A program made the position numbers and the translations under genes. 64,000 nt of DNA from a virus: the IMG/VR virus record IMGVR_UViG_3300043446_003193, positions 1 through 64,000 of that record. One strand, written 5' to 3'. This document shows, in pieces, positions 15,337 through 45,967 of this stretch; the stretch's first letter is position 1, and each line of letters begins with the position of its first letter. The notes under the pieces are model-generated. The model saw only the letters and a list, made by a program, of their open reading frames with translations. It ran no database searches and was not told the origin of the DNA.

Positions 15337-15777
15337 CTATTTTATATTTCTCGCTCTATATGTGTTAGTTTGCGAATGACAATTAGGACAAATTATTCTT
15401 AAATTTTCTAATCTATGATTTGTTCTATCACCATCAATATGGTCTAATTCAAATGAAACTGGTTTATTGTTCCATTTTAGTATACCACACACTTCACATT
15501 TTTCCTGTTTAATACTTTCTTTAATCAATCTAATTCTTAATTTATTAGTTTGATATTGTGGATGTTTTCCATCTAGTATTTCAGAAAGAGCTATTTTATC
15601 AAATCCATCTTTTTTTGGTTTTTTTATTCCTTTTCCAGATTGATTTATTTTATAACATCCCAATTTAACAGCTCTATTTTTTAGAGTATTAAAATGAATA
15701 CCAAGTTCAGCTGCAGCTTTTGCCATTGAAATTGATTTTTTACACATTTTAATTATTTCATCATCATTTACTTTCAT
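15337..15777 (-). CDS. HNH homing-type endonuclease with N-terminal HTH
   Basis: HNH core ELDHIDGDRTNHRLENLRIICPNCH; HTH AAAELGIHFNTLKNRAVKLG; start trimmed to MKVNDDEII. Confidence 0.75.
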   Translation of the reverse strand: MKVNDDEIIKMCKKSISMAKAAAELGIHFNTLKNRAVKLGCYKINQSGKGIKKPKKDGFDKIALSEILDGKHPQYQTNKLRIRLIKESIKQEKCEVCGILKWNNKPVSFELDHIDGDRTNHRLENLRIICPNCHSQTNTYRARNIK

Positions 15778-15818
15778 ATTGATTTTAATAATAAGTATAT
15801 GACATGATAGAAAAACAA

Positions 15819-16383
15819 TCAATTGTGTATAACTATCTCAATTGGTTTTCCCAAATAATCAATATCACATTCAGTCCAAAGTTGTTCTGACATAGATATT
15901 GAAATTTTTGCAGAATATGGTAGATTATTATTCTTACCTACCCAACCGGTTAGTTTTCCTTTTTTAGAAAATGTTTCAATCCAATTTAATTTTGAATAAT
16001 CAATTAGTGACGAATCAAACTGAATTAAATAGTATTTTCTAATTCCTTTTTTCCACTCTCCTTTATTCCTACCCAACATTATATATGTATCACAATGTTT
16101 TTTAGAAATAAAATTTATTTTATCTTTTATAGTTTCATGTGAAGTAGTTCTATGACCACTCCAAGTTATACTACCTTTCTTATGATTTATATCCCCACTT
16201 TTGTTTTGATAATTCGTTCCATCTGCTTCCGATACAACATCCGTTCCAACATCATGTCCACCTACATTCCAATTTGAATCCATCCCATTTATACATTGGT
16301 CAAAAATATCTTCCCACAATTCCGCTTTGACAGGAAATCGGTATAACTGATGATGTAACTTTATCTTTTCTTCTATCTTCTTA
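15819..16383 (-). CDS. hypothetical protein (188 aa; start trimmed to MIKKDIV to clear tRNA-Arg)
   Basis: ORF 15819..16436 would overlap tRNA-Arg at 16398; the internal ATG at 16383 avoids this. Confidence 0.5.
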
Positions 16384-16397
16384 ACAATATCTTTCTT

Positions 16398-16471
16398 TAT
16401 CATATATAAACCGTTTGTGATTCGGAATGGATTCAAACCATTGACCCACAGCTTAGAAGGCTGTTGCTCTA
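16398..16471 (-). tRNA. tRNA-Arg(TCT)
   Basis: rc: GGTTCGGTAGCTCAGTTGAATAGAGCAACAGCCTTCTAAGCTGTGGGTCAATGGTTTGAATCCATTCCGAATCA. Confidence 0.8.
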
Positions 16472-17982: not shown

Positions 17983-18054
17983 CGCTTTCCGAGAATTACG
18001 ATATCTCGCCCCCATCGTTAACAGCGATGTGCTCTGCCTCTGAGCTAGGAAAGC
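17983..18054 (-). tRNA. tRNA-Asn(GTT) with atypical 9 nt T-loop
   Basis: rc: GCTTTCCTAGCTCAGAGGCAGAGCACATCGCTGTTAACGATGGGGGCGAGATATCGTAATTCTCGGAAAGCG; the 5' acceptor overlaps the last 3 codons of the HNH gene at 18045..18401. Confidence 0.7.
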
Positions 18055-18401
18055 TTTTGTTTTTCTATTTCATCATGTATTTCCATGTGACAATTACAAC
18101 ATACTAAAATACATTTATCTAATTCTTTTTTCATTTTTTCCCAACTTATACTAGGTCTTGATAAAGAATATTCTTTTTCACTTGGTTCTAAATGATGGAA
18201 TGCTAATGCTCTATTACATTTATCATATCCACATTTTTCACATTTACCACCTTTGTATTCAATCGCTTTGATTTTCATTTTATCTCTACGATTAGATACT
18301 GAAATAGATGCACATTTTTTACATCTATACGCACCATCTACTCTTAATACAAATTCAGTTTTTCCATGTGTTTTACATTCTTTAATTTCTGTCTTATTCA
18401 T
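18045..18401 (-). CDS. HNH endonuclease (Cys-rich, CCNCH)
   Basis: Multiple CxxC pairs and the HNH signature LVCCNCHMEIH; embedded in the tRNA array, 3' end overlapping tRNA-Asn by about 7 nt. Confidence 0.65.
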   Translation of the reverse strand: MNKTEIKECKTHGKTEFVLRVDGAYRCKKCASISVSNRRDKMKIKAIEYKGGKCEKCGYDKCNRALAFHHLEPSEKEYSLSRPSISWEKMKKELDKCILVCCNCHMEIHDEIEKQKLS

Positions 18402-18542: not shown

Positions 18543-18974
18543 AAAACAAAAAACCCCAACTTAATTAAAAGTCAGGGTTTTCCATAAATTATTTAAAATA
18601 GACGTTCCTAACTTTACATACGAATACCACCCCAAATCTGATTCGGTGTACTACAAAGTGTATGTAATGTTAAGTTTTTCATTTTTATTTTTTTTTAAGT
18701 AATTCAATTTCAAAATACGCCATCCAAGTCATGCTCTGGTTATTATCAGCCTCATCAAATTACTTTGTACACAAGCAGAGTTTAGAGGGAGGCGGTAACT
18801 CTTTGTAGTGTACTGCTACTAATCCGGCAATCTTTTATCGTCTCTGATTGCATTTTTATTGTGAAAATCCTCCCTAAAACACTTATTACCAATTTTATTA
18901 TATCGTTCTATCTTTTAGGTCATTTAAACGAACCGACTGTTGAATAAGAAACAGCCAAAAGGTTGACCACGAAA

Positions 18975-19047
18975 GAGCGAATGTGGGAATTGAACCCTAT
19001 CTTCCACCCCGTTAAGAGTGGTGTGCTTCCGTTACACTATATTCACT
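18975..19047 (-). ncRNA. tRNA-like gene with probable 8 nt anticodon loop (CTTAACGG) and weak T-stem: candidate suppressor/frameshift tRNA or pseudogene
   Basis: rc: AGTGAATATAGTGTAACGGAAGCACACCACTCTTAACGGGGTGGAAGATAGGGTTCAATTCCCACATTCGCTC. Acceptor AGTGAAT/ATTCGCT pairs 7/7 (one G-U); D-arm paralogous to the Arg(ACG)/Gln tRNAs. Confidence 0.4.
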
Positions 19048-19954
19048 TAAAATGAGTGAGATTACCTCATTGGGAGTACCAACTTTAGAAAGATTATTTG
19101 TTTCCTTTCCTATCCACTACCTTTTGAGTAGTACCGATACAATGTGGATGATTTGAGACTATCAGTCTTTGAGTTACGTCTTACTCTCTTTATACTCCGC
19201 TTCTTCAAATCTGCCGACCTGATTAAACCTTGCGGGTTTAGAAGTTTTTCCAAAGAATCACAGACCTCTTGCGGAGGTATCGTGGCAAGGAACAGCTCCC
19301 TACTATGTACACACCTTTCGTCCGTAACTGGCAAACACTTATGCTTTTATTTAAATTGAATAATCAAATCCGCATTTGATAAAAGGGTTGGTTTGTAGAT
19401 GGGTTCAGGTAGCGGTTTGCCAACCAGCTCCCTCAACTTTTGGCCGAGAGAATACTGAACTACCCGATGTGTTATCGTCAACACCATTTTTCAAGTCATC
19501 TTCATTAATAGGGATTGGTGTCCCACATTAAAGGTTAGTAACAACACCACTTGTACACCAACATACCTTACGTCCTTTCGGATAGCTTGGTTTTAAGACC
19601 ACTCTTAAATTGAATACCGCAATAGTGTAAAGTGATTAGCCTTACATTTCTTACAGGTATTCTATGGGTTATTCTTATTGTTCTTCCGAACTCAACCGAA
19701 GTATCTACTTACCCCGGTTATTCAAACTCTTCCGATATAGTGTTACCCTTTCGTACAAAGCTCAAATAATATCCCACTTGCATACTTAAGTTATTCTCTC
19801 CTTACGGGGAGAGTAACCGCAGATTGTGTAAACCTAACAATCCACTTTATCCTACTTTCGTAGTTTATTTGACGACCATATGCGGCCGTTGTTTACTATG
19901 TAGAAAAATCTACTATGTAAAATATTTTCAATCTTTTAAAGAACTATTCGTTTT

Positions 19955-19995
19955 AATAAATATAACAATAATTTTTTTTATTACCAAATATTTTT
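19955..19995 (-). promoter_or_regulatory. promoter (copy 1 of 4 in tandem): TTTG, 20 nt spacer, TATATTTA
   Basis: rc reads TTTGGTAATAAAAAAAATTATTGTTATATTTATT. Confidence 0.45.
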
Positions 19996-20060
19996 AAAAC
20001 TTTTTTTGTAAACTTGATAACGAGTATCTTTCATCACCTATTGTTTCTCATTTACTTATG

Positions 20061-20092
20061 TAATATACGATAATTTTTTTAAACTACCAAAT
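20061..20092 (-). promoter_or_regulatory. promoter (tandem copy 2)
   Basis: rc reads TTTGGTAGTTTAAAAAAATTATCGTATATTAC. Confidence 0.5.
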
Positions 20093-20202
20093 ATATTTTC
20101 AAAAAACTTTTAAGATGTTTGGTATCCGGCTTTCTTCCCTATTGGATAGGTCACTCAATCGGTTTTATTATTTGATGGCTTCAACCAATCATCTTAAATG
20201 TA

Positions 20203-20232
20203 AGATACGATAATTTTTTCAAACTACCAAAT
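20203..20232 (-). promoter_or_regulatory. promoter (tandem copy 3)
   Basis: rc reads TTTGGTAGTTTGAAAAAATTATCGTATCTTAC. Confidence 0.5.
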
Positions 20233-20313
20233 CTTTTTTATTTTTTTGTTGAACATTTTCGGCTGTGTTTACTTACACCATTTAATACTTCCTACTTCTG
20301 AACAACTTTGTAA

Positions 20314-20343
20314 AGATACGAAAACTTTTTCAAATTTCCAAAT
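20314..20343 (-). promoter_or_regulatory. promoter (tandem copy 4), immediately downstream of initiator tRNA
   Basis: rc reads TTTGGAAATTTGAAAAAGTTTTCGTATCTTT. Confidence 0.5.
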
Positions 20344-20350
20344 CTTTTTT

Positions 20351-20424
<74 letters not shown>

Positions 20425-20432
20425 ATATTATG

Positions 20433-20832
20433 TGGAGATGAGGGGATTTGAACCCCTGTCTTACAAAGAACTAATAATACCAGCATATCACACGTTTATT
20501 TCAGTTTCTACTGAAAAAATATTTAATTTAGTTAAAGTGAGTTTAAGGGTTCAAATTAAAAAATAACTCTTCATAACGGAGTCTCACTGTCCTATACTTT
20601 TAGGTGTATTAAACCTTTGTAGACACTTCTGTTACTAGGCGTATGTGTACCGGCCCTATTGTTGTGATTAGGCTGCTACAGCGTAATCAGCACCTACAAA
20701 CGCCATTAAATCGTTGTAAGTCATTGTTGACATTTCGTCATTTATTGTTTTGTACATAGTTTAAAGAGGTATAGTACATATCTCTACGTGTGGTACTACT
20801 ATTTGCATTGCAATCAATTCCATAGCATCCCC
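20433..20832 (-). ncRNA. ssrA: tmRNA (ssrA-like), about 400 nt; candidate tag ORF ...G-A-D-Y-A-V-A-A-stop
   Basis: 3' end rc AGACAGGGGTTCAAATCCCCTCATCTCCACA resembles the tmRNA 3' consensus GGACGGGGGTTCAAATCCCCCCGGCTCCACCA. A 5' GGGGATG about 400 nt upstream (rc of 20826..20832) pairs with 3' CATCTCC. Internal frame GGT GCT GAT TAC GCT GTA GCA GCC TAA encodes an ssrA-like tag. Promoter motif at 20881..20912 gives a ~35 nt leader. Confidence 0.6.
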
Positions 20833-28922: not shown

Positions 28923-30123
28923 AATTACCTTTTGATGGAAATCTAGTCCATCCATTAGACCATATTGGTTTGGATAGTGTTTCCATTTCAGCTTTTGTAT
29001 AAGATACCTCTTTGTTACCTTGTGATAAAGCTTTTGTTTTCATATCTGCTGCAGTAAATACAGTAGAAGTAGATTTGAAGTTTAACAATGGGTCAAATGC
29101 CTGAATTTCATTGTTTTCAAATTTAGAAACCCCATCTTTGTAAGCTTGTGCAGTTTCGTTACTTTCAATTGAAAACCCACCTTTTTGATAACCAATGATT
29201 TTTGAGTTAGTCATTGTAAATTGAGTTGCACGTCTCCATCTTAAACCTAAATTATGGTTTGCTAAAGAAGCTGCATCAAATGGTCCAACTAAAATCATAT
29301 TATCCAATTTAGGATGTGTGAATGGCTGTGCGGTTGTACCTGTTCCATCATTATCACACTCCACACCATTTCCAGCATCACCAGCATCTACGAATTGTGG
29401 GTCTCTCTTTGATACTGAATAAGATACCGAACCTCTATATCCAAAATCAAAATCGTAATCATCATCAGCAGTTGCGTATGCGTATAAGTTTTTAGCGTTT
29501 ACAGTTCCACCAAAGAATTCAAATGCATCATCGTTAGCGTAAACAGTTTGGATATACTCTAAAGTTGTTCCACTACCTACACCACCTAATGTTAATCCAT
29601 TGATTTCAGAGTTTGGCATTGCTGCAATTCCTGCATATTCAATTCTAACATATTTTAGGATACCACTATTATCCAAATCGTTAGTTCCACCATAAGGTCT
29701 ACCAATACCACCTTCAATTGTTGGTTCAGAAGTTCTATTGGTAGTTGCTCTACCTAATATAACTACACCACCCCAATCACCAGGCAATCTTTCACCAACA
29801 GCTTTACCAGATGTAAATACGATTGGTTTTGCTGCAGTTCCTTCTGCGATTATTTGTGCACCTCTTTCAATAATTAATGCACCTTTCTCAGCGATATCGG
29901 ATACGATTGTTGTACCTGGCTGAATGATAAGTTTTGCACCATCAATTACATAAACATATCCTTTTAAGGTCCATGTTTTATCTGATGTTAAAGTTGTTGT
30001 TGTGTTAATGTTACCACTCAAAATTGTTGATGATGGTACATTTACAGGAATATCAGTTCCACCTAATTCTTTTTTGCAACTGAATAATCCCAATACTAAA
30101 ATAATTCCTAATAGTTTTTTCAT
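28921..30123 (-). CDS. lipoprotein (400 aa), beta-rich; possible right-handed beta-helix
   Basis: Lipobox LGLFSC; immediately downstream of the TonB-dependent-receptor-like gene with a 4 nt overlap. Confidence 0.55.
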   Translation of the reverse strand: MKKLLGIILVLGLFSCKKELGGTDIPVNVPSSTILSGNINTTTTLTSDKTWTLKGYVYVIDGAKLIIQPGTTIVSDIAEKGALIIERGAQIIAEGTAAKPIVFTSGKAVGERLPGDWGGVVILGRATTNRTSEPTIEGGIGRPYGGTNDLDNSGILKYVRIEYAGIAAMPNSEINGLTLGGVGSGTTLEYIQTVYANDDAFEFFGGTVNAKNLYAYATADDDYDFDFGYRGSVSYSVSKRDPQFVDAGDAGNGVECDNDGTGTTAQPFTHPKLDNMILVGPFDAASLANHNLGLRWRRATQFTMTNSKIIGYQKGGFSIESNETAQAYKDGVSKFENNEIQAFDPLLNFKSTSTVFTAADMKTKALSQGNKEVSYTKAEMETLSKPIWSNGWTRFPSKGN

Positions 30124-32372
30124 AAATTCAAATTTAATGTTAATGAAATTGTTTGTTCGTTGTTTGTTTTTATAAGATTTCTCTTTGTTTGTAACTTTTG
30201 ATAATAGATTGATGGTTGCGCAAATACATCGCCTATTGCCAATTTTATTTCCCCTTTATTTAATTTATGTAAAAGAGTTATATCCAATACATCTCTGCTG
30301 TTTTCAAAAATGTCTGGATAACCCTGAAATCCTATTGCTGATATTCTATCACCTACTCTATTGTAAGTTATGTTAATTGTATTTTTCTTTTTGTGAATAT
30401 TAAATCCACTATTTAATACATAATTTGATTGTCCCTGTAATTGTCTTTTAACTCCTTTAACATTTACTTCAGAATTCATCACAGAAGCGTTTGTGTAAAC
30501 ATCAAACCAATCATTTAATTTTTTACGAAATTCCAATTCAACACCATAAAGATATGCGTTATTGGGATTTGAATAAGTTAATAATAGATTAGATGGAACT
30601 GAACCATCTGCTACTATTTGCTCAATTGGTTTTATAAAGTTTTTACCAAAAAAAGATACTGAAATATTTTCTCCCGCGTTTGGATATAATTCCCATTTCA
30701 AATCTAAATTGTATATGTCAGATTTTTCCAATTTAGGATTACCCAATAATTGTGCATTTCTTACAAAATCATAATAAGCAAAATTAGCTACTTCTCTAAA
30801 CTCAGGTCTTGCTAATGTTTTACTTAATGAAAATCTATATTTTGTTTTTTCTAAATTGTAAGAAAGATTTAGTGATGGTAATACATCCAAATATTCTCTA
30901 TTAACTTTAACTTTACTTCCACTAAAATCTGCAGTAGATACATCAAATAGATTATATTCAGTTCTAACGCCTGTATTTAATTTCCATAAACCAAATTCTT
31001 TGTCCAACATTACATACCCACTACCTAAATCAAAATCAGCAGTATATTTGTCTGTGTTGTTTGTTATCTCATCTAACATATCAGTTGAAAGATAACGAAA
31101 TATTCTTGCATTAAATCCTCTAATCTTTTTTAAGTATCCACCACCAATCTTAATATCACCAAACGATTTATTAACATTACCATTAAAACTATTTTCATCC
31201 ATTACACTCCAAAAACGATATGTATCTCTCCATGCAGTTGTATATGGTTCGTTTACTCCTAATGATTTTGTAATTGGATTAACTCTATAATCAGGTTGTT
31301 CTCTGAATATAAAATTGTATCCTAAATTAAAATCCCAAGTTTTAAGTTTACCATCAAATTGAGAATTAACTACAACATTGTTTATATGGTTAGATGAATT
31401 ACTATGAACATTTTGAACATTATCATAGTTTTCACCATTTCTATTCATATAAGAATCATCGGCTTGATAGTTCACCAATGTTTTCCAACTATATCGGTTC
31501 TCACCTAAATAAGTTAAATTCAATAAACCATTTGCGGAAAATCTTTTTGAGAATAAAGTATCTCTATAATCGTATGCTAATTCAGTTGAAGATTGATAAT
31601 CTATTCTATCTATATAATTCAGTCCATAAGAATTTCTAATTGTTGAACTGAATAAAGCGTTGAATTTGTTTTTCTTTACACCAAATGATAGGCCACCATT
31701 TAAGTTTGGAGATGATGTAAACCCTTCTATGATTGGATTACTTAATTGTTTTGTGTATAACCTCTTATCACCATTACTACTAATACGATATCCGTAAGTA
31801 GATGGGAATGTGGAAGGGAATTCAGTAGCTTGAACTAACTTAAAATCTTTAAGAGATGAAACTGAGCCCCAACCACTTCCCAATGAGATATTAAAAAAGT
31901 TATCGGATACTTCTTTTGTTGAAACTTGCACCAATCCACCACTCCAATCGCCAGGTAGATTTGCCGATGCCGATTTAGATACTATAATATTATCAATTAA
32001 TGCCGTTGGAATTAAATCAAAAGAAAATGCTCTCTTATCAGGTTCAGTTGATGGTAGAAGGGTTTTGTTTAACATAGCAGAATTATAACGGTCTGCTAAT
32101 CCTCTTACTAATACAAACTTATCGTTTTGTATAGTAACACCACTTACTCTTTTAAGTGCATCCCCAACATTTCTATCAGGTGTTTTTTTAATAAAATCAA
32201 TGGATACACCATCCGAAACTACTGATGCGTTACGAATGGTTGATATTACAGCTACTTCAGTAGATTTTTTACCTGCTGAACGGACTGTAACCGTTGATAA
32301 TTGTTTGGAAAATAATGTGTCTTGGGAATATGTTACAAATGGAAGTAACAATAACAATAAAAAAATCCTCAT
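30120..32372 (-). CDS. TonB-dependent-receptor-like outer membrane protein (750 aa)
   Basis: Signal peptide; TonB-box-like STVTV; plug motifs DALKRVSGVTIQ...FVLVRGL...RYN; beta-rich C-terminus. Confidence 0.65.
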   Translation of the reverse strand: MRIFLLLLLLPFVTYSQDTLFSKQLSTVTVRSAGKKSTEVAVISTIRNASVVSDGVSIDFIKKTPDRNVGDALKRVSGVTIQNDKFVLVRGLADRYNSAMLNKTLLPSTEPDKRAFSFDLIPTALIDNIIVSKSASANLPGDWSGGLVQVSTKEVSDNFFNISLGSGWGSVSSLKDFKLVQATEFPSTFPSTYGYRISSNGDKRLYTKQLSNPIIEGFTSSPNLNGGLSFGVKKNKFNALFSSTIRNSYGLNYIDRIDYQSSTELAYDYRDTLFSKRFSANGLLNLTYLGENRYSWKTLVNYQADDSYMNRNGENYDNVQNVHSNSSNHINNVVVNSQFDGKLKTWDFNLGYNFIFREQPDYRVNPITKSLGVNEPYTTAWRDTYRFWSVMDENSFNGNVNKSFGDIKIGGGYLKKIRGFNARIFRYLSTDMLDEITNNTDKYTADFDLGSGYVMLDKEFGLWKLNTGVRTEYNLFDVSTADFSGSKVKVNREYLDVLPSLNLSYNLEKTKYRFSLSKTLARPEFREVANFAYYDFVRNAQLLGNPKLEKSDIYNLDLKWELYPNAGENISVSFFGKNFIKPIEQIVADGSVPSNLLLTYSNPNNAYLYGVELEFRKKLNDWFDVYTNASVMNSEVNVKGVKRQLQGQSNYVLNSGFNIHKKKNTINITYNRVGDRISAIGFQGYPDIFENSRDVLDITLLHKLNKGEIKLAIGDVFAQPSIYYQKLQTKRNLIKTNNEQTISLTLNLNL

Positions 32373-42685: not shown

Positions 42686-45600
42686 TTATTTACCGAAAAT
42701 GTATCTGATACCAAATTGTGCTGTCCACACATCAAATACTGATGAGTTTTTGCTATAAGTATCTTTCAACAATACAGTTGAGCCATCTAACAATCTTTGT
42801 GTTGCAAATTTGTAAACTGGCTCGTTATTAACTACTGATGAATAAGTTAAAATTGCCGGATTTGTAAATCTTTGAGATACACCCCAATCTTCATTAACCA
42901 TATTACCAAAGTTAAGAATATCAAAACGTAATTGAATTGTGTTTCTATCGCCCTTAACATTTACATAGAAATCTTGAACTACTGAAAGGTCAAATCTATG
43001 TAACCAAGGTAAGAATGAACCATTACGTTCTGCGTACTGTCCTTTACGAGTTGATAGGTAATCATCTTGATTAATGTAATTCCAAAATGCTGCTTGTTGT
43101 TCAGCTTCGGTGTAAGTTTTTGTACCTACAACCAATGGTGCGAATTTAACTTCTGTCATTGATTTTGGAACATATATTAATTCATTATTATTAACTCTAT
43201 CTCCGTTCAAATCACCTGCAACAAAGTAAGATGTACTACCACTTCTTTGTCCAACATATCCTATTGTTACTGAAGTTGCTGCACCGTATCCTTTCTTACC
43301 ATATTCAATTCTATATCCCAATAAACCTACTGCTCTATCAGGAACTACGAAATCTGAATTTGAAAGAATTGGGTTGTTGTTACCATTGATACTTCTAATT
43401 GATTGCCATGTTCCACTTGCGATAGAACCTGCACTCATAAAGTCTTCAGCGTTTGATTTAGTGTAAGCAATACTACCGAAGAAACCTTTTGAATATGGTT
43501 TTTCTAATTTAACTGAAAGTGCATTGTAGAATGACTCATCGTTATTAGTTAAAACCGCACCCATAGATACATTATCGTTTACTCTTACACCAGCATCAGT
43601 TCTTGCATACAATGCTCTTTGGTCTGCTCCACTAAATTTACCAATTGGTGCATCCAAGTTTGCGTTGTAGTAATGAACTGCATTAAGTGTTTTGTTGTAT
43701 AAATACTCTACACTACCTACTAAACCTAATGGTAATTTTTGGTCTACTGCTAAATTAGTTTTCCAAACTTGTGGAAACTTATAGTTAGGGTCAGTAAATG
43801 CTAAATCAAATGTTGAAGGAAGGGTTGGAGTAGAAGGGATGAAATATTTTTCAGGGTTAGCAGTAAAACCATATTGAGATGCTGCTGCACCACTTACATC
43901 AATAAATCCTGTCAATACACCATTGTTACCAACTTGGTTAGATACGAATACATACGGAGGTCTACCGGTGAATACACCTGTACCACCTCTAACTTGTGTT
44001 TTCTTATCGTTCTTAACATCCCAGTTGAAACCAAATCTTGGTTCCCACAATAATTGTGTTTTAGGTAAAGTTGCTGTATTGAATTTCTCACCACCTGCAA
44101 ATGTCATAGCAGTTACTGCTTTATTTTCCAATGCTGTGTTTTCAAATCCAATAATAGCAGTTCTTAAACCAAATGTTAATTTTAAGTTTTGAAGTGCTTG
44201 GTATTCATCTTGTCCGTATAAATCCAATCTTTGAGTTTTCAACACTTGCATTGGGTCAACTGCCCCAGGTAATGCTGAATATCTGTATTGAAATCTATAT
44301 GGTGCCGTTGTAGATGGTTTACCACCATTTGCCAAACTCTCATTTGCTGCTTTATAGAAGTCAGCCAAAGAGTTGAAAATATAAACACCATTTGATGCAG
44401 GATAGAATAAGTTGTTAGATTGGTATTTCTCATAATTGAAACCTAATGTGAAAGTGTGCTTATCTGCATACTTTGTTAAGTTATCGGTAATGTGGAAAGT
44501 ATTGTAATCTAATTTATTTCCTGGAGTGAATGGGTCAAAACCTGTTGAAATATAGTTTACTCTTGCAGAAGTTCCATCAGCAATATCAATTGTTGGGAAC
44601 ACACCTGTCATATATGCTCTATCTTCAATTTGTTTATCATAACCAACGATTAAGTTGTTATGTAATGTGTTTGAAAATTTAGAGTTTAATTCAACAACTG
44701 CTGAACGAGTATTATCCATAATGATATAACCACTATTCTTATAACTCATAGAATTAAAGATAGTAGTTCTATTACCTGCACCTGCTGATTGAGAGTTAGA
44801 AATGTTAATCTCTGCATCAGAATTGTGGTGAACATAACGAGCAGTTAATTTATGCTTATCGTTGATGTTCCAGTCTACTCTTACTAAGAATTTCTTACTT
44901 GCATTTGTATTAGAATATCCTTCCCATGGGCCAGTTACATAATTGAATTTATCTTTCATAAAATCAGAAAGAGTTTTCAAATCATCATACTTAACTCTTG
45001 TTGGTTGAGCACCACCCAACGGAGAACCTGCAGATGTCCAAGTTGTACCTGGCTCTGTTTTCTCTAATTGTTCGTAGTTACCAAAAATGAATAATTTGTT
45101 TTTGATAATTGGTGCACCTAAACGGAAACCAGTAACTTTCTCATCAAATTTAGATGCGGTTACAGGAACTCCTGCTGCTGAATTACCAACATAACGAGAA
45201 CTATTATCTCTTTGTGTTTGATAATAAGAACCTTCAACTTTGTTTGTACCTGAACGTGTAACTGCATTGATACCTGCGCCAGTAAACCCACTCTGACGAA
45301 TATCAAATGGAGCAACATTCACTTGTAATTGTTCAATCGCATCTAATGATATTGCAGATGAACCTGTTCTACCACCAGCTTGTGCCGAACTACCCAATCC
45401 AAAATTGTTATTGAATTGAGAACCATCAATTGTGAAGTTATTCAAACGAGAGTCTTGTGCTCCGAATGAAGAACCATCACCCAATGGATTGTACTTTGTA
45501 ATTCCGTTGATTGTTCTTGCTCCTGTAATAGGAATAGAAGTCAATTCTCTTCTACTAAATACTTGTGCAGCACCAGTTCTATCCTTAGAGAATAGATTGT

Positions 45601-45967
45601 TTTTGGTTCCTGTCACAACTACATCTTTCAAAGAAGTTGCTTCACTTAATAACTTAAAGTCTACGTTTGATGTAACACCTAATTGAGTGTTTACATCTTT
45701 CTCTTCTCCTTTTCTAAATCCTACAAACGAAGCATGGATTGTATATGGTCCACCTACTCTTACGGCAGGTAAAACATAAACACCATTTTTGTTTGTAACC
45801 GATTTGTACTCTGTACCTGTCGGTGTATGTGTAGCGTGAATTGTTGCACCTACTAACACCTCATTTTTTTCGTTCTTAACAACACCAGAAATAGTAGAAG
45901 TGGTAACTTGACCAAATCCAATTAAAACTGATACTGAAAGGAACAACGATAGAATCGCTTTTTTCAT
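42686..45967 (-). CDS. TonB-dependent receptor with N-terminal carboxypeptidase-regulatory-like domain (SusC/RagA-type architecture, 1093 aa)
   Basis: Signal peptide ending FGQ; CarbD-like ISGVVKNEKNEVLVGATI; plug DVVVTG...RRELTSIPITGARTINGITKYNPLG; long beta-barrel. Confidence 0.75.
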   Translation of the reverse strand: MKKAILSLFLSVSVLIGFGQVTTSTISGVVKNEKNEVLVGATIHATHTPTGTEYKSVTNKNGVYVLPAVRVGGPYTIHASFVGFRKGEEKDVNTQLGVTSNVDFKLLSEATSLKDVVVTGTKNNLFSKDRTGAAQVFSRRELTSIPITGARTINGITKYNPLGDGSSFGAQDSRLNNFTIDGSQFNNNFGLGSSAQAGGRTGSSAISLDAIEQLQVNVAPFDIRQSGFTGAGINAVTRSGTNKVEGSYYQTQRDNSSRYVGNSAAGVPVTASKFDEKVTGFRLGAPIIKNKLFIFGNYEQLEKTEPGTTWTSAGSPLGGAQPTRVKYDDLKTLSDFMKDKFNYVTGPWEGYSNTNASKKFLVRVDWNINDKHKLTARYVHHNSDAEINISNSQSAGAGNRTTIFNSMSYKNSGYIIMDNTRSAVVELNSKFSNTLHNNLIVGYDKQIEDRAYMTGVFPTIDIADGTSARVNYISTGFDPFTPGNKLDYNTFHITDNLTKYADKHTFTLGFNYEKYQSNNLFYPASNGVYIFNSLADFYKAANESLANGGKPSTTAPYRFQYRYSALPGAVDPMQVLKTQRLDLYGQDEYQALQNLKLTFGLRTAIIGFENTALENKAVTAMTFAGGEKFNTATLPKTQLLWEPRFGFNWDVKNDKKTQVRGGTGVFTGRPPYVFVSNQVGNNGVLTGFIDVSGAAASQYGFTANPEKYFIPSTPTLPSTFDLAFTDPNYKFPQVWKTNLAVDQKLPLGLVGSVEYLYNKTLNAVHYYNANLDAPIGKFSGADQRALYARTDAGVRVNDNVSMGAVLTNNDESFYNALSVKLEKPYSKGFFGSIAYTKSNAEDFMSAGSIASGTWQSIRSINGNNNPILSNSDFVVPDRAVGLLGYRIEYGKKGYGAATSVTIGYVGQRSGSTSYFVAGDLNGDRVNNNELIYVPKSMTEVKFAPLVVGTKTYTEAEQQAAFWNYINQDDYLSTRKGQYAERNGSFLPWLHRFDLSVVQDFYVNVKGDRNTIQLRFDILNFGNMVNEDWGVSQRFTNPAILTYSSVVNNEPVYKFATQRLLDGSTVLLKDTYSKNSSVFDVWTAQFGIRYIFGK

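What the first reader, a model, noticed from the sequence alone, without database searches (positions are those of the whole stretch)
18543..19954. About 1.4 kb of GC-elevated, ORF-free sequence with long-range complementary segments: candidate structured ncRNA(s)
This region between tRNA-Tyr and the tandem promoters has no ORF over 75 aa on either strand and is visibly more GC-rich than the surroundings. Complementary blocks include GTGTACTACAAAG (18646) with CTTTGTAGTGTAC (18801); AGAGGGAGG (18785) with CCTCCCT (18868); hairpin TCTCTCC-TTAC-GGGGAGAGT (19792..19814); and GGTTGG...CCAACC (19387..19425). I searched by eye for RNase P RNA P4/CR motifs and found none; the identity remains open (leader/spacer RNA, novel ribozyme, sRNAs, or replication origin).
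Basis: seen in the sequence. Interest (0 to 1): 0.55.

Follow-up and report, generated by a model that had tools for sequence, protein, structure and literature searches.

The report
GOLLD RNA plus unclassified companion RNA
The gene-free stretch is a full-length copy of GOLLD, a known giant phage RNA that builds RNA-only cages, followed by a broken tRNA and a roughly 430-base structured RNA that matches no Rfam family.

Summary
All features lie on the minus strand. Window 19890->19053 is a complete GOLLD RNA. It scores 267 bits against Rfam RF02032 (threshold 150). It aligns end to end, at 69% identity, with env-38, the GOLLD whose 14-mer nanocage was solved by cryo-EM. A Bacteroidota-type promoter precedes it. 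A degenerate tRNA with a 6-nt anticodon loop (19046->18975) follows it.

The remaining ~430 nt (18974->18545) is not GOLLD and matches no Rfam family. It is about 95% identical to the closest relative, where GOLLD itself is about 80%. Its helices covary. It ends in a terminator-like hairpin.

Its centre is a 67-nt hairpin (18764->18698) with a near-invariant apical loop, AUAACCAGAGCAUGACUUGGAUGGCG. I found this hairpin once in each of about 90 freshwater viral and metagenome contigs. It is always co-oriented with tRNAs, often directly abuts one, and is usually near GOLLD or tmRNA. Its stems covary strongly.

Its by-eye complementary blocks are no more frequent than chance, although two coincide with real helices.

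Verdict: a new member of a known family, plus a candidate new companion motif.

The parts
19957..19988 (-). Promoter-like element for GOLLD. It has a Bacteroidota-type -33 TTTG (19988->19985), a 20-nt spacer, and a -7 TATATTTA (19964->19957). It is the last of four 42-nt tandem copies.
   Evidence: Four direct repeats. The element is nearly identical in L004 (2 substitutions in the spacer). The match to the Bacteroidota -33/-7 consensus comes from my own knowledge. Transcription start at ~19950 is inferred.
19892..19950 (-). Leader between the inferred transcription start and the first GOLLD nucleotide, with a small hairpin GUAGA-UUUU-UCUAC (19913->19900).
   Evidence: Read from the sequence. 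L004 has GUGAGU-UUCG-ACUCAC at the same place, a compensatory replacement.
19468..19890 (-). GOLLD 5' domain (the variable domain, not covered by the Rfam model).
   Evidence: Aligns with env-38 nt 5-~420. Colinear blastn matches to L001 and L002. RNAalifold on 11 sequences gives 124 pairs, 82 with compensatory changes, and a covariation term of -24 kcal/mol.
19053..19467 (-). GOLLD junction hairpin, A/U-rich linker and conserved 3' domain (the part modelled by Rfam RF02032).
   Evidence: cmscan: 267.3 bits against a gathering score of 150, E 4e-75, model positions 1-416 of 416. Aligned to env-38 through nt 810.
18975..19046 (-). Degenerate tRNA (tRNA-like element) starting 6 nt after the GOLLD 3' end. 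It derives from tRNA-Gly(UCC) and has a 6-nt anticodon loop and a 3-bp T stem.
   Evidence: ARAGORN calls it 'tRNA-???', anticodon (aa). Rfam tRNA score is 31.6 bits against a gathering score of 29. The same slot holds an intact tRNA-Gly(UCC) in L006 and L008, tRNA-Glu in L012, another tRNA with a 6-nt loop in L001, and an uncallable version with an insertion in L004 and L015.
18771..18974 (-). 3' module, part U. It contains:
- UCGUGGUC (18972->18965), whose GGUC pairs with GACC (18921->18918)
- hairpin 1 (18956->18935)
- AGGGAGG (18875->18869), pairing with CCUCCCU (18792->18786) in the loop of hairpin 4
- hairpin 2, GCAAUC/GAUUGC (18851->18827)
- hairpin 3, GUAG/CUAC (18819->18805)
- hairpin 4, AGAGUU/AACUCU (18802->18777)
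   Evidence: Alignments A6, A8 and A10. Covariation at GGUC/GACC (G-C<->A-U in 4 sequences), at the AGGGAGG/CCUCCCU pairing (GC 6, AU 5, GU 2), and in hairpins 1-4. The part is optional: it is absent in L006, L088, L053, L030 and L035. The 23-aa ORF inside it is not conserved (L008 lacks the ATG and has a stop).
18698..18764 (-). Invariant-loop hairpin 'H'. Its parts are:
- P1, AGUAAUUUGAU/AUUGAAUUACU
- an internal loop
- P2, AUA/UAU
- a 26-nt apical loop, AUAACCAGAGCAUGACUUGGAUGGCG (18743->18718)
   Evidence: My covariance model R1 hits window 18768->18693 at 43.2 bits, E 3e-8, with one hit per locus in 84 of 84 sources. 93% of cells are paired, 16 of 16 pairs show changes on both sides, 0 of 500 shuffles reach this, and slid controls give 35-52%. 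No Rfam hit.
18586..18697 (-). 3' module, part D. It has an A-rich spacer, a conserved AUGA (18682->18679), and a domain closed by ACAUAC (18666->18661) / GUAUGU (18621->18616) that encloses a variable hairpin.
   Evidence: Present in all type-A relatives (A8). The closing sequences ACAUAC/GU(A/G)UGU are nearly invariant and the inner hairpin varies in length and sequence. The UCGU/AUGA long-range pairing predicted by RNAalifold is invariant, so it is uninformative.
18543..18585 (-). Terminator-like hairpin AACCCUGACUU-UUAAUU-AAGUUGGGGUU followed by UUUUUUGUUUU. It abuts the first base of tRNA-Tyr (18542).
   Evidence: Read from the sequence. Hairpin plus U-run is conserved, with changes that keep the stem paired (for example CCUCUGAC/GUUAGGGG, CCCUAAC/GUUGGGG), in A6 and A8. 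The simple scan did not flag it.

Best explanation
The region is a non-coding RNA transcription unit on the minus strand of a large, AT-rich freshwater phage. The host is probably a member of the Bacteroidota.

A Bacteroidota-type promoter (~19988->19957) drives a full-length GOLLD RNA (19890->19053, ~840 nt). GOLLD is a known phage-associated RNA with a 5' domain, a linker and a 3' domain. In its close relative env-38 it assembles without protein into a 14-subunit hollow nanocage. What the cage does is unknown.

Six nucleotides after GOLLD sits a decayed tRNA that can no longer decode. I infer that it survives as a processing signal: RNase P cutting at its 5' side would set the GOLLD 3' end, much as tRNA-like structures define the ends of other long RNAs.

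Downstream lies a second structured RNA of about 430 nt in three modules (U, H, D). It ends in a terminator-like hairpin just before the tRNA array. Its core, H, is a hairpin that displays a near-invariant 26-nt loop. I infer that H is released as a small stable RNA by the tRNA-processing enzymes, and that its loop is a sequence-specific docking site for a conserved partner.

Shown: the GOLLD identity, its domain completeness, the covarying structures, the synteny and the absence of coding. Inferred: the promoter, co-transcription, RNase P processing, cage formation by this copy, and any function of H.
For: GOLLD identity:
- Rfam RF02032 scores 267.3 bits against 150, covering the full model.
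- The env-38 cryo-EM construct aligns from nt 5-810 to window 19887->19059 at 68.8% identity.
- The 5' domain has 124 predicted pairs, 82 of them compensatory.
- Properties of the GOLLD family come from PMC12286853 and PMC5737381.

Phage context:
- About 80% identity to IMG/VR contig L004.
- Relatives lie on viral contigs of 25-237 kb with the same order: tmRNA, tRNA-Met, GOLLD, tRNA, module, tRNA array.
- Window proteins include HNH endonucleases, MoxR and SusC-like barrels.

tRNA-like element: the cloverleaf has a 6-nt anticodon loop, and intact tRNA-Gly or tRNA-Glu occupies the same slot in relatives.

3' module:
- About 95% identical to L004.
- Covarying helices.
- Folding z-score is -2.25 on the minus strand and -1.25 on the plus strand.

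Hairpin H:
- 87 loci held the exact core and were analysed for context; six further IMG/VR contigs carry a variant loop 3' end and one more is cut inside the loop.
- There is one copy per locus and all tRNAs in these loci are co-oriented with it.
- The core starts 25-27 nt after a tRNA 3' end in 36 loci. In L071 it sits exactly between two tRNAs.
Against: - There is no expression data, so the transcript ends, co-transcription and processing are all inferred.
- The terminator-like hairpin directly abuts tRNA-Tyr. This is awkward if it really stops transcription, because the array would then need read-through.
- Some relatives carry a promoter-like AT-rich box between H and part D, so the module may not be a single RNA.
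- The alignment used to count H pairs was fitted to the model, which biases the counts towards the proposed structure. The searches that collected the loci imposed 17-24 nt of the 'invariant' loop.
- Nanocage formation was shown only for env-38, not for this sequence.
Confidence: 0.9

Rival explanations
1. Only GOLLD is functional. The 430 nt downstream is a decaying spacer made of tRNA remnants and filler, with no role of its own.
For: The slot after GOLLD does contain a decaying tRNA. Part U is missing in several relatives. The GC content of the module equals background. No known family matches it.
Against: The module is more conserved than GOLLD between the window and L004, ~95% against ~80%. 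Several of its helices covary. The H hairpin recurs in about 90 contigs of at least three different architectures, with covarying stems and a near-invariant loop.
Confidence: 0.07
2. Hairpin H acts at the DNA level rather than as RNA. It could be a single-stranded DNA hairpin or a recognition site for a nuclease, recombinase or replication initiator.
For: An invariant central sequence flanked by freely varying inverted arms is also the pattern of HUH-nuclease origins and some recombination sites. HNH homing-endonuclease genes sit in the same tRNA array. Covariation cannot distinguish RNA from ssDNA.
Against: H is always co-oriented with the surrounding tRNA, tmRNA and GOLLD genes, and there are 0 antisense tRNAs in the 87 loci. 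It often starts within a few nucleotides of a tRNA 3' end, or fills the gap between two tRNAs, as a co-processed RNA would. G-U wobble pairs are frequent in the stems (for example pairs 20-90 and 39-73), and on the complementary DNA strand these would be A-C mismatches. Cumulative GC skew shows no turning point here.
Confidence: 0.07
3. The conserved loop encodes a micro-peptide beginning MTWMA (AUG ACU UGG AUG GCG...).
For: An AUG-initiated frame runs through the invariant sequence in all types. It gives MTWMAYFEIELLKKK* in the window, MTWMAT* in type B and MTWMATKV* in L071.
Against: No synonymous variation occurs at any codon of the conserved part in 44 distinct sequences. The 10 invariant nucleotides upstream are non-coding. 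The C-terminus and length (6-16 aa) are not conserved. The start codon would be buried in a hairpin loop closed by covarying stems.
Confidence: 0.03
4. The region is a replication origin or a protein-coding stretch read with an alternative genetic code.
For: Huge phages related to those hit are known to recode stop codons (my own knowledge). The region is ORF-free under table 11.
Against: All three stop codons interrupt every frame, so no single reassignment opens an ORF. The rest of the window translates into long ORFs under table 11. There are no iterons inside the region and no skew inflection. The GOLLD match explains 60% of the region outright.
Confidence: 0.01

Closest known systems
GOLLD RNA (Rfam RF02032; Weinberg et al. 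2009; env-38 cryo-EM structure PDB 9MEE, Kretsch et al. 2025, PMC12286853)
   Same: The covariance-model match covers the full model. There is 69% identity along the whole env-38 sequence, including the normally variable 5' domain. The length is ~840 nt. The setting is a phage, next to tRNAs and downstream of a tRNA-Met, in a lake-type metagenomic lineage.
   Different: Nothing essential differs. This copy has its own promoter-like element and a ~60-nt leader. It is separated from tRNA-Met by three further promoter-like repeats. It is followed by a non-decoding tRNA and an extra structured module that is not part of the described family.
ROOL RNA (RF03087)
   Same: It is another large, ornate, cage-forming phage RNA found near tRNA islands, with unknown function (PMC12286853, PMC5737381).
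   Different: Its sequence and fold are unrelated, and no ROOL match was found anywhere in the window. The 3' module here is not ROOL.
tRNA-like 3'-end processing elements (MALAT1 mascRNA; the mitochondrial tRNA punctuation model)
   Same: A tRNA-shaped element that does not decode sits directly at the end of a long non-coding RNA, where RNase P cleavage would create the mature end (analogy from my own knowledge).
   Different: Cleavage was not tested here. The element is a recently decayed tRNA-Gly rather than a dedicated structure. Relatives use intact tRNAs in the same slot.
Stable small RNAs of the phage T4 tRNA cluster (species 1 and 2, rnaC/rnaD)
   Same: They are small structured RNAs of unknown function, encoded inside a phage tRNA gene cluster and matured with the tRNAs (my own knowledge). 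This resembles what I propose for hairpin H.
   Different: No sequence relationship was tested or is expected. H is shorter and is defined by a 26-nt near-invariant loop.

Membership tests
GOLLD RNA (RF02032) | Covariance-model score at or above the curated gathering score (150 bits) over the conserved 3' region | tested here: met
   267.3 bits, E 4e-75, model positions 1-416 of 416, window 19467->19053.
GOLLD RNA (RF02032) | Full architecture: a 5' domain of ~400 nt, an unstructured linker and a conserved 3' domain, more than 800 nt in total | tested here: met
   End-to-end alignment with env-38 (nt 5-810 to window 19887->19059, 68.8% identity). The A/U-rich linker lies at 19408->19330.
GOLLD RNA (RF02032) | Secondary structure supported by covariation | tested here: met
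   In the 5' domain, 82 of 124 RNAalifold pairs have compensatory changes across 11 sequences. In the 3' domain, pairing is scored by the Rfam model.
GOLLD RNA (RF02032) | Phage or prophage context, adjacent to tRNA genes | tested here: met
   tmRNA and 19 tRNA or tRNA-like genes lie on the same strand. Close relatives are IMG/VR viral contigs. The same holds in the huge phages LR756502 and LR745206.
GOLLD RNA (RF02032) | Self-assembly into a D7 14-mer nanocage through kissing loops and A-minor contacts | not testable with these tools
   This is known only for env-38 (PMC12286853). I could not map the L21a/L21b loops reliably, because the env-38 sequence recovered from the PDF is 815 nt rather than 833 nt and contains text errors.
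tRNA (RF00005) | Cloverleaf with a 7-nt anticodon loop, a 5-bp T stem and an assignable anticodon | tested here: not met
   ARAGORN reports a 6-nt loop, anticodon 'aa', identity '???', and a 3-bp T stem. The Rfam score of 31.6 bits barely exceeds the gathering score of 29. I therefore file it as tRNA-like, not as a tRNA.
Any Rfam 15 family, for the 3' module and hairpin H | A covariance-model match at the gathering score, or at least at E <= 1 | tested here: not met
   Nothing below E = 1 in window 18543-18974 (weakest-E match 1.4); best is ST7-OT4_1 at 19.5 bits, E 2.5. No match at the gathering score in 16 related loci. No match at E <= 1 on the H element in loci of types B and C.
Intrinsic (Rho-independent) terminator | A G+C-containing hairpin immediately followed by a U-run | tested here: inconclusive
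   An 11-bp stem (2 G-U pairs) plus UUUUUUGUUUU lies at 18579->18543 and is conserved in relatives. The consensus scan did not list it, and a tRNA starts right after it.

The most novel reading that the evidence does not exclude
The ~430 nt after GOLLD, and above all the hairpin with the near-invariant loop AUAACCAGAGCAUGACUUGGAUGGCG, may be a previously undescribed family of phage non-coding RNA. It travels with GOLLD, tmRNA and tRNA-Met in freshwater jumbo phages and may work together with GOLLD. It could be cage cargo, an assembly or opening factor, a docking site for a shared host partner such as the ribosome, or a small ribozyme or aptamer. If so, it would be the first sequence-defined companion of GOLLD and a handle on GOLLD's unknown function.
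Probability: 0.3. Interest if true: 0.7.

Novelty: new member of a known kind. Interest (0 to 1): 0.42.

Why it matters
GOLLD has been known since 2009 and its cage structure since 2025, but its function is still unknown. This copy is close to env-38, the one GOLLD with a solved structure. It sits in a well-populated clade of freshwater phage contigs with conserved synteny. That makes the clade a good comparative system.

The analysis adds two points. First, the tRNA directly after GOLLD can lose its decoding ability yet stay in place, which suggests an end-defining role. Second, a structured RNA with no Rfam match recurs beside GOLLD, including a hairpin with a 26-nt near-invariant loop found in about 90 contigs.

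An invariant loop presented on a freely covarying stem implies a conserved binding partner. Identifying that partner could give a testable lead on what these phage RNA islands do. If the companion turns out to be an unrelated orphan motif, the finding is simply one more GOLLD locus.

Tried and rejected
1. RNase P RNA, introns, riboswitches, known ribozymes, ROOL, Y RNA: Rfam gave no match at the gathering score or at E <= 10.
2. Coding, including recoded stops: all frames are interrupted by all three stop codons. The 23-aa ORF with an SD-like AGGGAGG is not conserved. That AGGGAGG is instead one strand of a covarying long-range helix.
4. MAFFT plus RNAalifold on the H hairpins: this failed because stems of different types were not aligned in register. 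I solved it by building a covariance model from one type and realigning.
5. H loop pairing with GOLLD or tmRNA: RNAduplex energies were no better than for shuffled loops (the first attempt, timed out).
6. A host copy or antisense target of the H loop: the exact 20-mer has 0 hits on either strand in 185,579 representative bacterial and archaeal genomes.
7. Homology of the 3' module in the distant GOLLD loci L001 and L002: none.
8. Identifying the source phage in GenBank phages: only tRNA-sized matches and two weak GOLLD matches.
9. A protein-anchored search for syntenic relatives gave one contig (L003) with no GOLLD nearby.
10. Mapping the env-38 kissing-loop residues by number: abandoned because the sequence extracted from the PDF is imperfect.
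Full report
**Observation.** The window is AT-rich (GC 0.318). In this area everything is encoded on the minus strand, in this order:
- a tmRNA (20832->20432)
- tRNA-Met (20424->20351)
- the finding (19954->18543)
- tRNA-Tyr (18542->18461)
- an HNH endonuclease ORF
- 16 more tRNAs

The finding contains no ORF longer than 74 aa. Its GC content is 0.370. The excess comes from 19053-19890 (0.399) and a tRNA-like element (0.472). The 3' 430 nt has 0.326, which is background.

However, perfect inverted 9-mers are no more frequent than in dinucleotide shuffles, 10 against 7.5 +/- 3.6. By-eye complementarity is therefore not evidence of structure here.

**Identity of the main element.** Rfam cmscan places GOLLD (RF02032) at 19467->19053 on the minus strand. 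The score is 267.3 bits against a gathering score of 150, the E-value is 4e-75, and all 416 model positions are covered.

The Rfam model covers only the conserved 3' part of GOLLD. To test for the rest, I took the sequence of GOLLD env-38, the RNA solved by cryo-EM as a 14-mer nanocage. It comes from Supplementary Table 4 of Kretsch et al. 2025 (PMC12286853). env-38 nt 5-810 aligns with window 19887->19059 at 68.8% identity over 841 columns, including the 5' domain that is normally variable within the family.

An 11-sequence alignment of the 5' domain combined the window, seven IMG/VR relatives, two huge phages from GenBank and env-38. RNAalifold gives 124 consensus pairs on it, 82 with compensatory changes, and a covariation term of -24 kcal/mol. 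The window therefore carries a complete GOLLD of about 840 nt (19890->19053).

In env-38 it is CAUCUU-GUAA-AGAUG.

**Context.** The closest relative held, IMG/VR contig L004, is about 80% identical over window 20242->18625. Further relatives on viral contigs of 25-237 kb share the same gene order: tmRNA, tRNA-Met, GOLLD, one tRNA, a non-coding module, then a tRNA array.

GOLLD also occurs in the 635- and 642-kb uncultured huge phages LR745206 and LR756502, with a tRNA next to GOLLD, after it in LR756502 and before its 5' domain in LR745206.

Window proteins include HNH endonucleases, a MoxR-type ATPase, glycosyltransferases and two SusC/TonB-like outer-membrane barrels.

Upstream of GOLLD lie four tandem 42-nt repeats. 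Each reads, on the minus strand, TTTGG-N19/20-TAnnTT(T/A). This fits the Bacteroidota -33/-7 promoter consensus as I know it. The last copy (19988->19957) would start transcription near 19950, about 60 nt before the first GOLLD nucleotide. Promoter function is inferred, not shown.

**The tRNA-like element.** Six nucleotides after GOLLD lies a 72-nt cloverleaf (19046->18975). ARAGORN cannot assign it: it has a 6-nt anticodon loop and a 3-bp T stem. Rfam scores it at 31.6 bits against a gathering score of 29.

In L006 and L008 the same slot holds an intact tRNA-Gly(UCC), and in L012 a tRNA-Glu. In L004 and L015 the element carries a ~25-nt insertion and cannot be called. In the distant huge phage L001 it is a well-formed cloverleaf, again with a 6-nt anticodon loop. 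An intact tRNA-Gly(UCC) exists elsewhere in the window's array.

So a tRNA-shaped element is kept at the GOLLD 3' end even after it stops being a decoder. I infer that it serves as an RNase P processing signal that defines the GOLLD 3' end. This is by analogy with tRNA-like end-processing elements and is not tested here.

One observation remains unexplained. This element carries four stretches of 9-11 nt that are perfectly complementary to the GOLLD 5' domain. That amounts to 11 complementary 8-mers against 0.8 expected, and 0 of 2000 shuffles reach it. The post-GOLLD tRNAs of L008, L001 and L012 have none, and another window tRNA has 7.

**The remaining 430 nt (18974->18545).** This part is not GOLLD. 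It has no similarity to L001 or L002 and no Rfam match below E = 1. Yet it is the best-conserved stretch between the window and L004, about 95% identical against about 80% for GOLLD. It folds better than shuffles on the minus strand (z -2.25) than on the plus strand (z -1.25).

It is non-coding. Every frame contains all three stop codons. The only plausible mini-ORF (23 aa, preceded by AGGGAGG) loses its start codon and gains a stop in the L008 clade.

Alignments of 7, 24 and 14 relatives show three modules.

*Part U (18974->18771).* This part is absent from some relatives. It contains four hairpins with compensatory changes and two longer-range pairings that covary:
- GGUC/GACC, which changes from G-C to A-U in four sequences.
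- AGGGAGG (18875->18869) with CCUCCCU (18792->18786) in the loop of hairpin 4. The pairs read GGGAGG/CCUCCC in the window, GGGGAA/UUCCCC in L008 and L017, and GGGAAA/UUUCCC in L021.

*Part H (18764->18698).* This is described below.

*Part D (18697->18586).* This is a domain closed by ACAUAC/GUAUGU. It is followed by a conserved hairpin plus U-run (18585->18543) that abuts tRNA-Tyr.

RNAalifold does not predict it and it is not maintained outside the closest relatives.

**Hairpin H.** An exact 17-mer from the module recurred in 21 IMG/VR contigs. In all of them the neighbouring AACCAGA, which the search did not impose, was also identical, while the flanking arms differed completely yet stayed complementary.

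I built a covariance model from one subtype. It finds exactly one copy in each of 84 sources, including window 18768->18693 at 43.2 bits and E 3e-8. It finds none in L001 or L002.

On the 44 distinct sequences, the pair counts are as follows:
- 93% of cells form standard pairs.
- All 16 pairs show changes on both sides.
- None of 500 shuffles reaches the observed values.
- Sliding the partners by 1-3 columns drops pairing to 35-52%.

One caveat applies: the alignment was fitted to the model.

The architecture has an outer stem (8-13 bp), an internal loop of variable size, a 3-4-bp inner stem and a 26-nt apical loop, WUAACCAGAGCAUGACUUGGAUGGCG.

I tested the invariance of the loop by freeing parts of the search pattern:
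- Freeing the central 5 nt recovered the same 21 contigs.
- One contig has a 1-nt insertion.
- Freeing the last 6 nt recovered seven further contigs, six of which carry a single substitution there (AUGGAG, AUGGCU, UUGGCG, AUGGUG); the seventh ends inside the loop.

The exact 20-mer is absent, on both strands, from 185,579 representative bacterial and archaeal genomes. H therefore has no host copy and no perfect antisense target.

**Context of H.** The context analysis covered 87 loci that hold the exact core. Every tRNA in them is co-oriented with H.
- Type A (42 loci, including the window): H lies 106-411 nt after a GOLLD 3' end in 38 loci. Three of the other four contigs end less than 300 nt upstream.
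- Type B (38 loci): the H core starts 25-27 nt after the 3' end of tRNA-Met or tRNA-Glu in 28 loci, so the stem begins almost at the tRNA end. A tmRNA is often just upstream. GOLLD is seen in only 4 loci within the DNA held.
- Type C (7 loci): H lies upstream of tRNA-Met plus GOLLD in 5 loci. In L071 a minimal H fills the gap between two tRNAs.

H is therefore an independent module of these phage RNA islands, not a part of GOLLD. Its position suggests that the tRNA-processing enzymes release it.

RNAduplex found no better pairing of its loop with GOLLD or tmRNA than shuffled loops give. The AUG-initiated frame through the loop (MTWMA...) shows no synonymous variation and has a variable tail, so a peptide is unlikely.

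What H does is unknown. My best guess is that it is a stable small RNA whose invariant loop docks a conserved protein or RNA partner. I hold this with low confidence.

**Comparison with known systems and novelty.** The main element is a bona fide GOLLD. Every defining feature that can be tested computationally is met. Cage formation and lysis-linked expression cannot be tested here.

The family, its phage and tRNA association, and the occasional physical linkage of tRNAs to GOLLD are already described (PMC12286853, PMC5737381). The finding is therefore a new member of a known kind.

Two things appear not to be described: the 3' module and the invariant-loop hairpin. Neither matches anything in Rfam 15, and my literature searches on GOLLD surfaced no description of such a companion element. 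Their recurrence beside GOLLD, and the persistence of a non-decoding tRNA at the GOLLD 3' end, are the parts worth following up.

**Verdict.** Interest is moderate: ordinary for GOLLD itself, raised by the candidate companion motif.

Noticed in passing
window 19955-20350 (minus strand): Four tandem 42-nt promoter-like repeats (TTTGG-N19/20-TAnnTT) lie between tRNA-Met and GOLLD, spaced 103, 140 and 111 nt apart. The ~60-100-nt segments between them may be small transcripts. One example is 20100-20197, whose ends AAGAUG...CAUCUU are complementary. No Rfam match was found.
   Followed up: partly
window 18975-19046 versus 19521-19529, 19598-19608, 19622-19630 and 19735-19746: The degenerate tRNA carries four stretches of 9-11 nt that are perfectly complementary to the GOLLD 5' domain (11 complementary 8-mers against 0.8 expected). 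The post-GOLLD tRNAs of L008, L001 and L012 show none. This may be chance or a lineage-specific pairing.
   Followed up: partly
type-B loci, e.g. L010 2432-2560; duplicated in L009, L011 and L014: A second conserved RNA-like module follows hairpin H: GGUUGAUUGGG...[variable hairpin]...GCCAAUCGUAAAAGCAGAUGUCCACGCACCCAUCUUCUGCUUUCCUAAA. It is sometimes present in two tandem copies and has no Rfam match at E <= 1.
   Followed up: partly
L001 2379-2452 (LR756502, a 642-kb uncultured phage): The tRNA directly after this distant GOLLD is a well-formed cloverleaf (52.8 bits) but also has a 6-nt anticodon loop (ARAGORN anticodon 'tt'). This is a second case of a non-decoding tRNA shape at a GOLLD 3' end.
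   Followed up: partly
window 42686-45967 and 30120-32372 (minus strand): Two large ORFs look like SusC/TonB-dependent outer-membrane barrels (CarboxypepD_reg plus OMP beta-barrel, and Plug plus beta-barrel). These are unusual cargo for a phage and hint at a Bacteroidota host.
   Followed up: no
window 18045-18401, 15337-15822 and 15819-16436 (minus strand): At least two HNH homing-endonuclease-like ORFs (18045-18401 and 15337-15822 match PHROG HNH families); a third adjacent ORF (15819-16436) has no family match, all interspersed in the tRNA array.
   Followed up: no
window 20432-20832 (minus strand) and relatives: A phage-encoded tmRNA has the tag DEMSTMTYNDLMAFVGADYAVAA. The tag is nearly identical in L008, L015, L017 and L021, and the tmRNA always lies just upstream of tRNA-Met and GOLLD.
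   Followed up: no
L028 (Ga0255274_1021034), 1-1718: This type-A contig has 1.5 kb upstream of H, yet my nhmmer and ARAGORN pass detected no GOLLD and no tRNA there, unlike its near-identical relatives. It may be an assembly chimera or a deletion.
   Followed up: no
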